From the UHGV virus genome UHGV-0228494: 45,812 nucleotides of DNA, one strand, 5' to 3'. Below the pieces are notes generated by a model. That model was not told the DNA's origin and searched no databases. It was given only the letters and a program-made list of their open reading frames with translations. Made by a program: the position numbers and the translations under genes. Position 1 is the stretch's first letter; every line of letters begins with the position of its first letter. This DNA is from a virus. Shown here piece after piece: positions 21,455 through 25,976 of this stretch.

Positions 21455-23647
21455 ATGGGTAAAGGCAGCAGTAAGGGGCATACCCCGCGCGAAGCGAAGG
21501 ACAACCTGAAGTCCACGCAGCTGCTGAGTGTGATCGATGCCATCAGCGAAGGGCCGGTTGAAGGTCCGGTGGATGGATTAAAAAGCGTGCTGCTGAACAG
21601 TACGCCGGTGCTGGACAGTGAGGGGAATACCAATATATCCGGCGTCACGGTGGTGTTCCGGGCCGGTGAGCAGGAGCAGTCACCGCCGGAGGGATTTGAA
21701 TCCTCCGGCTCCGAGACGGTGCTGGGTACGGAAGTGAAATATGACACGCCGATCACCCGGACCATCACGTCGGCAAACATCGACCGTCTGCGCTTTACCT
21801 TCGGTGTACAGGCACTGGTGGAAACCACCTCAAAGGGAGACAGGAATCCGTCGGAAGTTCGCCTGCTGGTTCAGATACAGCGTAACGGTGGCTGGGTGAC
21901 GGAAAAAGACATCACCATTAAGGGCAAAACCACCTCGCAGTATCTGGCCTCGGTGGTGGTGGATAACCTGCCGCCGCGCCCGTTTAATATCCGGATGCGC
22001 AGGATGACGCCGGACAGCACCACAGACCAGCTGCTGAACAAAACGCTCTGGTCGTCATACACCGAAATCATCGATGTGAAACAGTGCTACCCGAACACGG
22101 CACTGGTTGGCGTGCAGGTGGACTCGGAGCAGTTCGGCAGCCAGCAGGTGAGCCGTAATTATCATCTTCGCGGGCGCATTCTGCAGGTGCCGTCGAACTA
22201 TAACCCGCAGACGCGGCAATACAGCGGTATCTGGGACGGAACGTTAAAACCGGCATACAGCAACAACATGGCCTGGTGTCTGTGGGATATGCTGACCCAT
22301 CCGCGCTACGGCATGGGGAAACGTCTTGGTGCGGCGGATGTGGATAAATGGGCGCTGTATGTCATCGGCCAGTACTGCGACCAGTCGGTGCCGGACGGCT
22401 TTGGCGGCACGGAGCCGCGCATTACCTGTAATGCGTACCTGACCACACAGCGCAAGGCGTGGGATGTGCTCAGTGATTTCTGCTCGGCGATGCGCTGTAT
22501 GCCGGTATGGAACGGGCAGACGCTGACGTTCGTGCAGGACCGACCATCAGATAAGGTGTGGACCTATAACCGCAGTAATGTGGTGATGCCGGATGATGGC
22601 GCGCCGTTCCGCTACAGCTTCAGCGCCCTGAAGGACCGCCATAATGCCGTTGAGGTGAACTGGATTGACCCGGATAACGGCTGGGAGACGGCGACAGAGC
22701 TCGTGGAGGATACGCAGGCCATTGCCCGTTACGGCCGTAACGTCACGAAGATGGATGCCTTTGGCTGTACCAGCCGGGGGCAGGCACACCGCGCCGGGCT
22801 GTGGCTGATTAAAACGGAGCTGCTGGAAACGCAGACCGTGGACTTCAGCGTGGGTGCTGAAGGGCTTCGCCATGTACCGGGGGATGTCATTGAAATCTGC
22901 GATGATGACTATGCCGGTATCAGCACCGGTGGTCGTGTGCTGGCGGTGAACAGCCAGACCCGGACGCTGACGCTCGACCGTGAAATCACGCTGCCATCCT
23001 CCGGTACCACGCTGATAAGCCTGGTTGACGGAAGTGGCAATCCGGTCAGCGTGGAGGTTCAGTCCGTCACCGACGGCGTGAAGGTGAAAGTGAGCCGTGT
23101 TCCTGACGGTGTTGCTGAATACAGCGTATGGGGGCTGAAGCTGCCGACGCTGCGCCAGCGACTGTTCCGCTGCGTGAGTATCCGTGAAAACGACGACGGC
23201 ACGTATGCCATCACCGCCGTGCAGCATGTGCCGGAAAAAGAGACCATCGTGGATAACGGGGCGCACTTTGACGGCGAACAGAGTGGCACGGTGAATGGTG
23301 TCACGCCGCCCGCGGTGCAGCACCTGACCGCAGAAGTCACCGCAGACAGCGGGGAATATCAGGTGCTGGCGCGATGGGACACACCGAAGGTGGTGAAGGG
23401 GGTGAGCTTTATGCTTCGCCTGACCGTGGCAGCGGATGACGGCAGTGAGCGGCTGGTCAGCACGGCCAGGACGACGGAAACCACATACCGCTTCAGGCAA
23501 CTGGCGCTGGGGAACTACAGGCTGACAGTCCGGGCGGTAAATGCGTGGGGGCAGCAGGGGGATCCGGCGTCGGTATCGTTCCGGATTGCCGCACCGGCAG
23601 CGCCATCGCGGATTGAGCTGACGCCGGGCTATTTTCAGATAGTTTGA
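21455..23647 (+). CDS. J: Tail tip protein J, C-terminally truncated (first ~729 codons of a ~1130-codon lambda-type J; ends ...[12 protein letters not shown] then V-stop from the junction)
   Basis: Near-identical to the lambda J N-terminal two thirds as recalled; homology stops at 23641, where the sequence becomes the reverse complement of the opposing J gene. Confidence 0.9.
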
Positions 23648-25976
23648 TATTGATACTGGCGGCTATCCAGTACAGCGCCGTACCAAGATAACGCGCGCTG
23701 GCTTCAACCTGCCTGATATCCGCAATCCGCTTTTCCGAGAACCAGAACTCAAACTGTACCGTCGGATCATAAACGGCAAGATGCGGCGTTGCGGTTATCT
23801 GAAAATAGCCCGGCGTCAGCTCAATCCGCGACGGTGCTGCCGGTGCGGCAATCCGGAAGGTGGTGGTGGCAGGTTCACCCTGCTGGCCATAGCTGTTTAT
23901 CGCCCGCACCGTCAGGGTGTATTCCCCGAGCGGCAGGCCGCTGAAACGGTGCTCCGTGTCTGCGGTGATGGCGGTGGTCACCAGTCTGGCATCCGTTCCC
24001 TTACCACTGGTCAGGCGCAGACTGAAGCGCACACCCTTCACCACCCGCGGCGTGTCCCATTTCGCCTGCGCCAGATACTGGCCGTCAGCTGCGCTCACCT
24101 CCACCGTCAGGTGCTGCACTGCCGGTGGGATGACGCTGTTCAGGGAACCTGACTGCGGCTCAAAGCGGGCACCGTTATCCACGATGGCTTCTTTTTCCGG
24201 TACGTGCTGCACCGCCGTGATGGCAAAGGTGCCGTCCGTGTTTTCCCGGATGGAGACACAGCGGAACAGGCGACGGCGCAGTGACGGCAGGGAGAGTCCC
24301 CACACCCCGTATGTCTCCACACCATCAGGCAGGGTACTGACCTGTATCCGGTCCGGCGCGGGGTGTGCGGTGATGTCCACACTCACCGGCTTACCGCTGC
24401 CGTTAATCAGGTTCACCGCCGATGTACCTGTCTCCGGCAGGGTAACCTCACGGTCCAGCGTCAGGGTGCGGGTGGCAGCATCAATGGACAGGACACGTCC
24501 GCCGGTCAGGGTCCCGGCATAGTCATTATCACAGATTTCAATAATGTCACCGGGTGTGTGCCGCAGCCCCTGAGACCCGAGCGTGAAATCCACCGTCTGC
24601 GTTTCCAGCAGTTCGGTCTTTATCACCCACAGTCCGGCACGGTGGGCCTGACCGCGGCTGGTACAGCCGAACGCGTCCATCTTCAGCAGGTTGCGTCCGT
24701 AGCGCAGTATGGCTTCCGGGTCTTCCACCAGTTCCGTGGAGGTCTGCCAGCCGTTCTGCGGGTCGGTGTAATTCACCTCCACCGCCGTGTGCCGGTCCTT
24801 CAGGGCACTGAAGCTGTAGCGGAATCCCACGCCGTTATCATCCACCACCACATCGCTGTTGGTGTACGGCCACACCACATCCGACGGGCGGTCCTGAACG
24901 AACGTCAGCGTCTGACCGTTCCATACCGGCATACAGCGCATCGCAGAGCAGAAATCACTGAGAACGTCCCACGCCTTACGCTGTTGTGCCAGGTACGCAT
25001 TAAAGGTCATCCGCGGCTCGGTCCCCCCGAAACCATCCGGGACCGTCTGGTCGCAGTACTGCCCGATGGCATACAGCGCCCACTTGTCCACATCCGCCGC
25101 CCCCAGACGTTTTCCCATGCCGTAGCGCGGGTGAGTCAGCATGTCCCACAGACACCAGGCCGGGTTGTTGCTGTATGCCGGTTTCAGACTGCCGTCCCAG
25201 ATACCACTATACGTGCGTTTTTCCGGGTCATAGTTTGACGGCACCTGGATGATGCGACCGCGGATATGGTAGTTCACCGTCATCTGCTGGCCGCCGAACT
25301 GCTCCGCATCCACCTGCAGCCCCACAATGGCCGTGTTCGGGTAGCACTGTTTCACATCGATGATTTCGGTGTATGACGACCACAGCGTCTTATTCTGCAG
25401 CTGGTCCGTGGTGCTGTCCGCCGTCTCCCTGACCATCCGGATGTTAAAGGGCCGGGGAGGCAGATTATCCAGAATCACCGAGGCCAGGAACTGTGAGGTG
25501 GTCTTGCCGTTAATGGTGACGTCCTTTTCTGTCACCCAGTTACCGTTACGCTGTAACTGAATCAGCAGGCGGACGGATGCCGGGTTACGGTCACCCTTTG
25601 AGGTGGTCTCCACCAGTGACTGCACCCCGAAGGTAACCCGCAGGCGGTCAATGTTCGCGGACGTAATGGTGCGCGTCACCGGTTTTGCCTTCGTCACTTC
25701 CACGCCCAGTCCGGTTTCAGCTCCGGAGGACTCAAAGCCTTCCGGTGGTGTCTGCTCCTGCTCCCCGGCGCGCCAGACCGCCGTCACACCGTGTATCACG
25801 GGATTGCCGTCCGTGTCCGTCAGTGGGGTTTTGTTCACCAGAATACTCTGCAGTCCCTTCACCGGACCTTCTATCGGTCCCTCACCAATCGCATCAATCA
25901 CGCTCATCATCTGCGTGGATTTGAGATTATCCTTCGCCTCACGAGGCGTGTGTGCCTTACCGCCACCTTTTCCCAT
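23493..25976 (-). CDS. J: Tail tip protein J of prophage B, C-terminally truncated (J-like through ...WIAASINIK at ~23644; the last ~50 codons, 23493..23643, are antisense read-through of prophage A J)
   Basis: 827 aa ORF; first ~788 aa colinear with lambda J residues ~1-788 but diverged; ORF tail [10 protein letters not shown]... is not J-like. Confidence 0.85.

What the first reader, a model, noticed from the sequence alone, without database searches (positions are those of the whole stretch)
23493..23860. Two tail-tip (J) genes converge and both stop at one breakpoint (~23642/23643)
The + strand J is lambda-like through ...[17 protein letters not shown] (ATA at 23639-23641) and then runs straight into the reverse complement of the opposing J. 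The - strand J is J-like through ...[10 protein letters not shown] (encoded at 23644-23655) and then reads antisense into the + strand J. So J of prophage A is cut at about codon 729 and J of prophage B at about codon 788, and both lack the C-terminal ~350-400 aa that in lambda J holds the receptor-binding region. Nothing normally found distal to J (lom, side tail fibre genes, integrase/att) is present. This is either a real deletion or inversion joining two inverted prophages, leaving both tail-defective, or a chimeric misjoin in the assembly.
Basis: partly seen in the sequence, partly recalled or inferred. Interest (0 to 1): 0.8.

Follow-up and report, generated by a model that had tools for sequence, protein, structure and literature searches.

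The report
Likely misjoin between two prophages
Two E. coli ST131 prophages that normally lie about 186 kb apart on the same strand are joined nose-to-nose inside their tail-tip (J) genes by a blunt joint found in no other genome, and this is most likely an assembly misjoin at a repeat, not biology.

Summary
A + strand J (21455-23641, 729 codons) and a - strand J (25976-23642, 778 codons, not 788) meet at 23641|23642, and nothing distal to J is present.

The window is E. coli ST131 DNA. Positions 1-23641 are 100.000% identical to prophage Phi3, and 23796-45812 are 100.0% identical to the reverse complement of prophage Phi4. In nine reference genomes checked, the two J genes lie on the same strand, 183-187 kb apart. 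A deletion is therefore excluded, because the joint is inversion-type.

The last 154 nt of the "- strand J" (23642-23795) are not Phi4. They are the exact reverse complement of Phi3 J nt 2188-2341, flanked by a perfect 36-nt inverted repeat. Only one joint is truly new, CAGATA|GTTTGAT, and it has zero microhomology. It is absent from 5,426 complete E. coli genomes, GTDB representatives, metagenome and viral contigs, and the protein index.

The Phi3 arm stops exactly 36 nt after the last base that distinguishes the two J genes, which is where a k=37 de Bruijn contig would end. The published ST131 pseudo-molecule NA114 truncates Phi4 J at the same place through contig concatenation.

Most likely an assembly artefact (about 0.7). 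A private 186-kb illegitimate inversion is not excluded (about 0.2). Interest is low.

The parts
1..23641 (+). Arm A: prophage Phi3 type (icd/sitABCD prophage of ST131), running from the nin region through Q, lysis, iss, terminase, head and tail genes to J nt 2187.
   Evidence: One gap-free BLAST match with 0 mismatches over 23,641 nt to strain 4/1-1 NZ_CP023844 1268926-1292566. Annotation. Corresponds to Phi3 of EC958.
21455..23641 (+). J_A, codons 1-729 of a 1160-codon tail-tip gene. The ORF runs two more codons (V, stop) to 23647.
   Evidence: Pfam finds FNIII-A_GpJ, Phage-tail_3 and Ig_J only. Ig_J_second, Phage_Tail_Tip and Ig_GpJ_C are missing.
23606..23641 (+). Left copy of S, a 36-nt stretch (J_A nt 2152-2187) identical in J_A and J_B. 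It starts right after the last A/B-discriminating base (nt 2151).
   Evidence: A k=37 de Bruijn unitig of J_A ends exactly at nt 2187.
23641..23642 (.). The only truly novel joint, CAGATA|GTTTGAT. It is blunt, with zero microhomology in any fold-back or end-joining register.
   Evidence: Absent from 5,426 complete E. coli genomes, GTDB representative genomes, JGI metagenome contigs and IMG/VR, and the phage and plasmid collections.
23642..23795 (-). 154-nt segment that is the exact reverse complement of J_A nt 2188-2341. It sits in the - strand J, where J_B sequence would be expected.
   Evidence: The 11 mismatches to J_B cluster at 23661-23784 and there are 0 mismatches to J_A.
23785..23831 (-). 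S', a 47-nt block (J_A nt 2152-2198) identical in J_A and J_B. The - strand gene changes from B-type to A-type somewhere within it. 23796-23831 is the right, inverted copy of S.
23832..25976 (-). J_B nt 1-2145, the unambiguous Phi4-type part of the - strand J.
   Evidence: The native full-length J_B is WP_000514710.1, 1157 aa.
23493..25976 (-). ORF of 827 aa: 778 J codons (B-type, then 52 A-type) followed by 49 codons of antisense read-through into J_A.
23796..45812 (-). Arm B: prophage Phi4 type (HK97-like head, lambda-like tail), running from J back through tail, head, terminase, HNH and lysis genes to the 3' end of the esterase gene.
   Evidence: 100.0% identity in one piece over the searched interval 23798-45812 to TUM9975 NZ_CP135664 2160131-2182145, and also to IPCEC48 and IPCEC42. 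Annotation. Corresponds to Phi4 of EC958.

Best explanation
The joint at 23641|23642 is most likely not a structure of the bacterial chromosome. It is probably an assembly, scaffolding or concatenation artefact at the J-gene repeat of an E. coli ST131 genome.

Proposed model (inferred):
1. Contig X holds Phi3 up to J_A nt 2187.
2. Contig Y holds Phi4 up to the same point in J_B.
3. Both contigs end just inside the region where the two J genes become about 90% identical.
4. A small collapsed repeat contig R' (J nt 2152-2341, carrying J_A alleles) is linked by its left end to both X and Y.
5. A chain X(+)-R'(-)-Y(-) was then built through the repeat.

The Y-R' join is seamless because it runs through the shared block, which gives the apparent hybrid J. 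The X|R' join is a plain abutment, which gives the blunt joint. It also keeps X's terminal k-1 = 36 nt as a second, inverted copy of S.

On this model, both prophages in the real organism would carry full-length J genes, as in every reference ST131 genome.
For: Shown:
1. Each arm is 100% identical to complete ST131 genomes right up to the joint, so there is no divergence to date an event.
2. In nine reference genomes, the two J genes are co-oriented and 183-187 kb apart. This fits the general rule that lambdoid prophages share orientation relative to replication (PMC11253608).
3. The joint is a singleton. It is spanned by 0 of 5,426 complete E. coli genomes. It is absent from GTDB representatives, metagenome and viral contigs, phages and plasmids. 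Neither truncated protein is in the index of 153 billion gene positions.
4. The joint has zero microhomology. That is expected for in-silico abutment and unusual for E. coli, which by general knowledge lacks Ku/LigD end joining.
5. Both breakpoints fall within 190 nt of the point where J_A/J_B identity jumps from about 66% to about 90%. This is where assemblies break.
6. Arm A ends exactly 36 nt after the last A/B-discriminating base, which is the predicted unitig end for k=37.
7. There is a precedent. Forde et al. 2014 (PMC4134206) show that the ST131 'complete genome' NA114 is a pseudo-molecule of Velvet contigs from 54-bp reads, ordered on SE15 and concatenated. Its BLAST table shows the Phi4 contig ending at EC958 1478221, which is J_B nt 2183, 38 nt after the same discriminating base (the k=39 prediction). 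That contig is abutted without Ns to a Phi5 contig at NA114 1287447|1287448.
8. The hybrid B-then-A sequence is also unique to this window. It switches inside a 47-nt shared block, as a graph walk through a collapsed repeat would.
Against: 1. No reads, AGP file or assembly method are available, so the artefact is inferred, not shown.
2. The other end of the inverted segment (J_A nt 2341) is not a predicted k=37 unitig end with the three J copies of EC958. The predicted ends are 2198, 2253, 2280, 2317, 2329, 2358 and 2363.
3. A naive k=37 graph would also break at the exact 63-, 53- and 38-nt blocks shared by the two arms. NA114 did break at the 63-nt block. The window runs through all three, so read or pair resolution must be assumed.
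4. There are no Ns at the joint.
5. The window's left end is single-copy sequence, so there is no independent sign of contig structure.
6. The 36-nt match to k-1 could be coincidence.
Confidence: 0.7

Rival explanations
1. This is a real, private chromosomal rearrangement: an inversion of about 186 kb with one end in J of Phi3 and the other in J of Phi4, made by illegitimate (non-homologous, blunt) joining. In the simplest version, native J_A through nt 2341 was joined to the reverse complement of J_B at nt 2181. The 154-bp segment between the resulting 36-bp inverted repeats later flipped by recombination or template switching. Alternatively, a single two-step template-switch event copied a 190-nt J_A stretch in inverted orientation and re-entered J_B through the 47-nt shared block. 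Both prophages would then lack the receptor-binding end of J.
For: - The geometry is exactly that of one inversion joint.
- Flipping the 154-nt loop between the 36-nt repeats removes the need for a hybrid gene and leaves a single novel joint.
- The imperfect palindrome (arms about 77% identical) would be tolerated in vivo.
- The consensus is clean, with no Ns, and both arms are error-free.
- The nt 2341 end is not explained by the contig-end model.
Against: - There is no microhomology at the joint, and E. coli has no canonical end-joining pathway (general knowledge).
- Two breakpoints 186 kb apart that land within 154 nt of homologous positions need a homology-coupled mechanism that is not known to give inverted joins between direct repeats.
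- A second event (flip or gene conversion) is needed.
- The joint is seen in no other genome or metagenome.
- The reciprocal joint cannot be checked.
Confidence: 0.2
2. This is a wet-lab chimera, either a ligation chimera or a polymerase fold-back/template-switch product from library preparation, MDA or gap-closing PCR. It was carried into the consensus at a low-coverage repeat.
For: A blunt joint without homology fits ligation. The B-to-A switch inside a 47-nt identical block is what PCR-mediated recombination gives.
Against: - Ligation chimeras have random partners, so two J genes at near-homologous positions would be a coincidence of roughly 1 in 10^4 or less.
- Polymerase fold-back needs terminal complementarity, which is absent in every register tested.
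- Single chimeric molecules rarely survive consensus building.
Confidence: 0.06
3. This is homologous recombination between the two J genes (an inversion or deletion of the kind seen between prophages of other E. coli), or a site-specific invertase event like the tail-fibre switches of ST131 prophages.
For: The two J genes share 77% identity overall and about 90% from nt 2125 to 3000. Invertase-driven tail-fibre inversions are documented in EC958 Phi1, Phi2 and Phi4 (PMC4134206).
Against: - Homologous recombination between co-oriented genes gives deletion or duplication with a collinear hybrid gene, never two convergent truncated genes.
- The joint itself has no homology.
- No 26-bp invertase crossover site is present in the window, with 0 matches at up to 3 mismatches.
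- The parental sequences at the two breakpoints share no core.
- No invertase gene lies in the window.
Confidence: 0.02

Closest known systems
Contig-concatenation misassembly of the ST131 'complete genome' NA114 (CP002797), described by Forde et al. 2014, PLoS One 9:e104400 (PMC4134206)
   Same: Same clone and same prophage (Phi4). J is cut at the same place, k-1 nt after the last base that distinguishes the Phi3 and Phi4 J genes (J_B nt 2183 in NA114, J_A nt 2187 here). In both cases it is directly abutted, without Ns, to unrelated prophage sequence.
   Different: NA114 is not the source. Its Phi3 contig already breaks at the 63-nt shared block, and its Phi4 contig is joined to Phi5, not to Phi3. 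Here the partner is the other J gene in head-to-head orientation, with a 154-nt inverted J_A segment in between. The implied k is 37 here and 39 in NA114.
Large chromosomal inversions by homologous recombination between lambdoid prophages in E. coli (for example O157:H7; general knowledge, with review context in PMC6379469)
   Same: The end points lie in homologous prophage genes, and a large chromosomal segment would be inverted.
   Different: Those events need inverted repeats and give collinear hybrid genes with the crossover inside identical sequence. Here the genes are direct repeats in the references, the joint has no homology, and both genes are truncated.
Gin/Cin/Pin-type invertible tail-fibre segments (EC958 Phi1, Phi2 and Phi4; PMC4134206 Table 3)
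   Same: A short segment flanked by inverted repeats inside a phage host-range gene. Phi4 itself has such a switch 6-10 kb beyond J in the reference genomes.
   Different: The 36-nt repeat here is ordinary J coding sequence. There is no 26-bp crossover consensus, no invertase gene and no alternative C-terminal exon. The repeat exists only because two homologous genes were placed head to head.
Tandem inversion duplications / fold-back junctions formed at quasi-palindromes (Salmonella and E. coli; general knowledge)
   Same: Fold-back geometry: the sequence turns back on a homologous arm, leaving a short single-copy loop.
   Different: In those junctions both arms come from one locus and the junction uses short inverted microhomology. 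Here the arms are two different prophages and microhomology is zero.

Membership tests
Lambda-type tail tip attachment protein J (gpJ) | Full domain series: FNIII-A_GpJ, Phage-tail_3, Ig_J, Ig_J_second, Phage_Tail_Tip and the C-terminal receptor-binding Ig_GpJ_C | tested here: not met
   The + ORF has only the first three domains. The - ORF has these plus two thirds of Ig_J_second. The native 1160-aa homologue has all six. Both are 5' fragments of genuine J genes, not complete genes.
Lambda-type tail tip attachment protein J (gpJ) | Position downstream of the tape measure-M-L-K-I genes of a lambda-like tail module | tested here: met
   Both fragments follow tape measure, minor tail protein L, the C40 peptidase (K) and the tail assembly protein (I), in the order seen in the references.
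Homologous-recombination inversion between prophages | The partner sequences are in inverted orientation in the parental arrangement | tested here: not met
   In nine ST131 genomes checked, the arm A and arm B hits are on opposite strands relative to the window. The two J genes are therefore co-oriented, 183-187 kb apart.
Homologous-recombination inversion between prophages | The crossover lies inside shared identical sequence and yields collinear hybrid genes | tested here: not met
   The joint CAGATA|GTTTGAT shares 0 nt with either parental continuation, and the genes are convergent and truncated.
Simple deletion between two prophages | The sequence right of the joint continues on the same strand as the left, from further along the reference chromosome | tested here: not met
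   The right side runs on the opposite strand of the reference: 4/1-1 1292566 (+) is followed by 1478375 (-).
Site-specific invertase switch (Gin/Cin/Pin/Hin type) | 26-bp crossover sites matching the family consensus, in inverted orientation, plus an adjacent invertase gene | tested here: not met
   The Phi4 crossover site sequence has 0 matches in the window at up to 3 mismatches. The reference annotation transferred to both arms shows no recombinase gene. The inverted repeat is J coding sequence.
Fold-back / tandem inversion duplication junction | Both arms derive from the same locus, and short inverted microhomology is present at the turn | tested here: not met
   The arms are Phi3 and Phi4, about 77% identical in J. 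No complementarity is found in any fold-back register.
Assembly artefact: contig ends joined at a collapsed repeat | Each side is collinear and identical with a known locus up to the joint, and the joint lies inside a multi-copy near-identical region | tested here: met
   Both arms are 100% identical to references up to the joint. The joint lies 36 nt and 190 nt into the region where J_A/J_B identity rises to about 90%.
Assembly artefact: contig ends joined at a collapsed repeat | Contig ends fall at positions predicted by one k-mer size (k-1 run-in after the last copy-specific base) | tested here: inconclusive
   The arm A end (nt 2187) is exactly the k=37 prediction. The other end (nt 2341) is not predicted for k=37 with the EC958 J copies. 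The arms also pass exact 63-, 53- and 38-nt shared blocks unbroken.
Assembly artefact: contig ends joined at a collapsed repeat | The joint is not reproduced in independent assemblies of the same clone | tested here: met
   It is spanned by 0 of 5,426 complete E. coli genomes, including hundreds of ST131. It is absent from the other collections searched.
Assembly artefact: contig ends joined at a collapsed repeat | No sequencing reads span the joint | not testable with these tools
   The source assembly and its reads are unknown.

The most novel reading that the evidence does not exclude
An ST131 isolate really carries an inversion of about 186 kb. One joint was formed by blunt, homology-free joining between two co-oriented, homeologous J genes. 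It was accompanied either by a templated inverted insertion of 154-190 nt or by a later flip between the new 36-bp inverted repeats. This would remove the receptor-binding end of J from both Phi3 and Phi4 in one step. It would be an example of homology-guided but non-homologous inverted joining in a bacterium without canonical end joining.
Probability: 0.18. Interest if true: 0.35.

Novelty: not a real feature. Interest (0 to 1): 0.08.

Why it matters
If the joint is an artefact, it matters only for data hygiene. A scan or annotation pipeline would wrongly report two tail-defective prophages, two J pseudogenes and a large inversion in a clinically important clone. ST131 already has one published case of this kind, NA114.

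If the joint is real, it would be a private structural variant that disables both prophages' tail tips. It would also be an unusual case of illegitimate inverted joining between homeologous genes in E. coli. That would be of moderate interest to people studying genome rearrangement, but it would not be a new kind of system.

Tried and rejected
1. IS-mediated inversion. Several top hits carried ISEc23 near J. The insertions lie in the K and I genes, not at either breakpoint, and the window has no IS or target duplication at the joint.

2. Invertase switch. No crossover site and no invertase gene were found.

3. Fold-back priming or template switching by microhomology. Both strands and both loop orientations were checked, and there is no complementarity at all.

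4. NA114 as the source. Its contig joins differ from the window, and the accession is not in the collection.

5. The window as two whole contigs. The left end is single-copy. The right end lies in a 2-3-copy esterase gene, which is uninformative.

6. A third J copy (Phi5 of EC958) as the reason for the nt 2341 end. It differs from J_A at 2330, 2337, 2340 and 2346, and predicts no unitig end at 2341 for k=37. This end remains unexplained.

7. Exact look-ups of both truncated proteins found nothing.

8. The original NA114 genome paper could not be read.

9. A literature search for ST131 prophage inversions gave no relevant case.
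Full report
**What is in the sequence**

ORF 21455..23647 (+, 730 aa) and ORF 23493..25976 (-, 827 aa) converge. The + strand gene is a lambda-type J through ...[10 protein letters not shown], codon 729, whose last base is 23641. The - strand gene is J-like through ...[10 protein letters not shown], whose last J base is 23642. 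The - strand gene therefore has 2335 nt, or 778 codons, of J, not about 788.

Pfam finds FNIII-A_GpJ, Phage-tail_3 and Ig_J in both products, plus two thirds of Ig_J_second in the - strand product. The native 1160-aa homologue also has Phage_Tail_Tip and the receptor-binding Ig_GpJ_C. The core observation is right.

**Where the DNA comes from**

- Window 1-23641 matches E. coli ST131 strain 4/1-1 (NZ_CP023844, 1268926-1292566) with no mismatch and no gap. This is the prophage next to sitABCD, called Phi3 in EC958.
- Window 23798-45812 matches the reverse complement of strain TUM9975 (NZ_CP135664, 2160131-2182145) at 100.0% in one piece. It matches IPCEC48 and IPCEC42 equally well. This is Phi4 of EC958.
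- In nine ST131 genomes checked (4/1-1, 4/4, 2/0, 4/0, E41-1, AR_0081, LS4, AR_0055, H105), the arm A and arm B hits lie on opposite strands relative to the window, 183-187 kb apart. Because the window has J_A on + and J_B on -, the two J genes are co-oriented in the chromosome (annotation).

A deletion cannot place them head to head. The joint is inversion-type. Co-orientation also fits the general rule for lambdoid prophages on one replichore (PMC11253608).

**Fine anatomy**

The mismatches of the right arm to Phi4 are all packed into 23661-23784. A three-way comparison shows that 23642-23795 is the exact reverse complement of J_A nt 2188-2341. It is A-type at all 11 sites that distinguish J_A from J_B.

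This segment is flanked by a perfect 36-nt inverted repeat, S, at 23606-23641 and 23796-23831, corresponding to J_A nt 2152-2187. The change from B-type to A-type happens inside a 47-nt block that is identical in both genes (23785-23831). B-specific sequence starts at 23832.

With a1 and b1 as the J_A and J_B sequence upstream of S, and a2 as J_A nt 2188-2341, the structure is a1-S-rc(a2)-rc(S)-rc(b1). Only one joint is truly new, CAGATA|GTTTGAT. It shares no base with either parental continuation and shows no complementarity in any fold-back register.

J_A/J_B identity is about 66% over nt 1500-2100 and about 90% over nt 2125-3000. The jump falls at the boundary between the Ig_J and Ig_J_second domains. 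Both breakpoints lie 36 nt and 190 nt into this near-identical region.

**Is the joint seen anywhere else?**

No.
- None of 5,426 complete E. coli genomes has a place covering 80% or more of 23200-24100. The best hits stop exactly at the joint. The same result shows that the hybrid B-then-A J is also unique.
- Junction-spanning words are absent from GTDB representative genomes, JGI metagenome contigs and IMG/VR.
- No phage or plasmid record spans the joint.
- Neither truncated protein is on record among 153 billion gene positions.

**Most likely explanation: an assembly artefact (confidence about 0.7)**

The reasoning has four parts.

1. The two breakpoints sit where two paralogous genes become near-identical. 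Assemblies break there, but random chromosome breaks have no reason to fall there.

2. The joint is blunt. That is what in-silico abutment gives. E. coli lacks the canonical end-joining pathway that makes blunt joints (general knowledge).

3. Arm A ends exactly 36 nt after nt 2151, the last base that distinguishes J_A from J_B. A walk along J_A in a de Bruijn graph built from the EC958 prophages puts a unitig end at nt 2187 for k=37. The retained second copy of S then has the length of a k-1 overlap.

4. There is a published precedent in the same clone. Forde et al. 2014 (PMC4134206) showed that the 'complete genome' of ST131 strain NA114 is a pseudo-molecule. It was built from Velvet contigs from 54-bp reads, ordered on SE15 and concatenated. 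Their EC958-NA114 BLAST table shows:
   - The Phi4 contig of NA114 ends at EC958 1478221, which is J_B nt 2183. That is 38 nt after the same discriminating base, as predicts for k=39.
   - It is followed directly, without Ns, by a Phi5 contig at NA114 1287447|1287448.
   - A 121-nt contig covering J_A nt 2243-2363 lies in the junk region of NA114.
   - The Phi3 contig of NA114 stops at the 63-nt block shared with Phi4, at EC958 1291974, which corresponds to window 20512.

NA114 is not the source of this window, because its joins differ. It does show that this artefact, at this position of J, occurs in deposited ST131 genomes.

The working model has three contigs. Contig X is Phi3 up to J nt 2187. 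Contig Y is Phi4 up to the same point. R' is a small collapsed repeat contig (J nt 2152-2341, A alleles) linked by its left end to both X and Y. Chaining X(+)-R'(-)-Y(-) through the repeat gives a seamless Y-R' join and a blunt X|R' join. This model is inferred, not shown.

**What does not fit the artefact model**

- The nt 2341 end is not a predicted k=37 unitig end with the three J copies of EC958.
- A naive k=37 graph would also break at the exact 63-, 53- and 38-nt blocks shared by the arms.
- There are no Ns at the joint.
- The left end of the window is single-copy, so there is no second sign of contig structure.
- The reads are not available.

**Rival: a real private inversion (confidence about 0.2)**

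The geometry is that of one joint of an inversion of about 186 kb. The neatest version joins native J_A through nt 2341 to the reverse complement of J_B at nt 2181. The 154-bp loop between the new 36-bp inverted repeats then flips. This needs only one novel joint and no hybrid gene.

Four points count against it:
- The joint has no homology.
- The two breakpoints coincide within 154 nt in homologous coordinates, and no known mechanism couples inverted joining to direct homeologous repeats.
- A second event is required.
- The joint is absent from every other data set.

A wet-lab chimera gets about 0.06. Homologous or invertase-mediated recombination gets about 0.02. The orientation of the genes, the anatomy of the joint, and the lack of a crossover site or invertase gene speak against these.

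**Verdict**

Deletion and 'inverted prophages' are excluded, and the misjoin option is favoured.

The feature is most likely not real, and interest is low. Two decisive tests could not be run here. One is read mapping or PCR across 23300-24000, using primers that are same-sense in a normal ST131 genome. The other is a search for the reciprocal joint.

Noticed in passing
window 34917-37178 (- strand): The Phi4 portal gene is 753 aa here and in TUM9975, but 861 aa in EC958 and 4/1-1. This is an in-frame 324-nt (108-aa) length difference with no other mismatch. The flanking stretches are only about 55% similar to the extra segment. NA114 also has a contig break at this spot (EC958 1466529).
   Followed up: partly
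window 23560-23650 (J_A nt ~2125-2198); J genes in L010, L011 and L012: J_A/J_B identity jumps from about 66% to about 90% at the boundary between the Ig_J and Ig_J_second domains (aa ~714-716). J of Phi5 (EC958 2143855-2147250) shows the opposite pattern: it is close to J_A upstream of nt 2151 and diverged just after it. This looks like a mosaic module boundary inside J.
   Followed up: partly
window 3972-4009 / 43028-43065; 20449-20511 / 27241-27303; 22049-22101 / 25330-25382: The two prophage arms share exact blocks of 38, 63 and 53 nt, in the lysis genes, the K (C40 peptidase) gene and the 5' part of J. These are long enough for recombineering-type exchange and long enough to break short-k assemblies.
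   Followed up: partly
window 4118-4411 (- strand) and just upstream of window position 1 in the references: Phi3 carries the serum-survival lipoprotein gene iss between its lysis and terminase genes. In the reference genomes, a 4.3-kb inverse-autotransporter gene and an alpha/beta-hydrolase gene lie immediately left of the window. The window starts at the first base after the hydrolase start codon.
   Followed up: no
L003 4318-6734; L004 5782-8198: Independent ISEc23 (IS66-family) insertions lie in the tail genes K and I of Phi3 (strains REF2, EC17) and of Phi4 (isolate 30348_2#256, AVS0343, AVS0155). These tail modules appear to be repeatedly inactivated in ST131.
   Followed up: no
window 41903-42268 (- strand): An HNH endonuclease gene lies next to the small and large terminase genes of Phi4, the arrangement typical of HK97-like cos packaging modules.
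   Followed up: no
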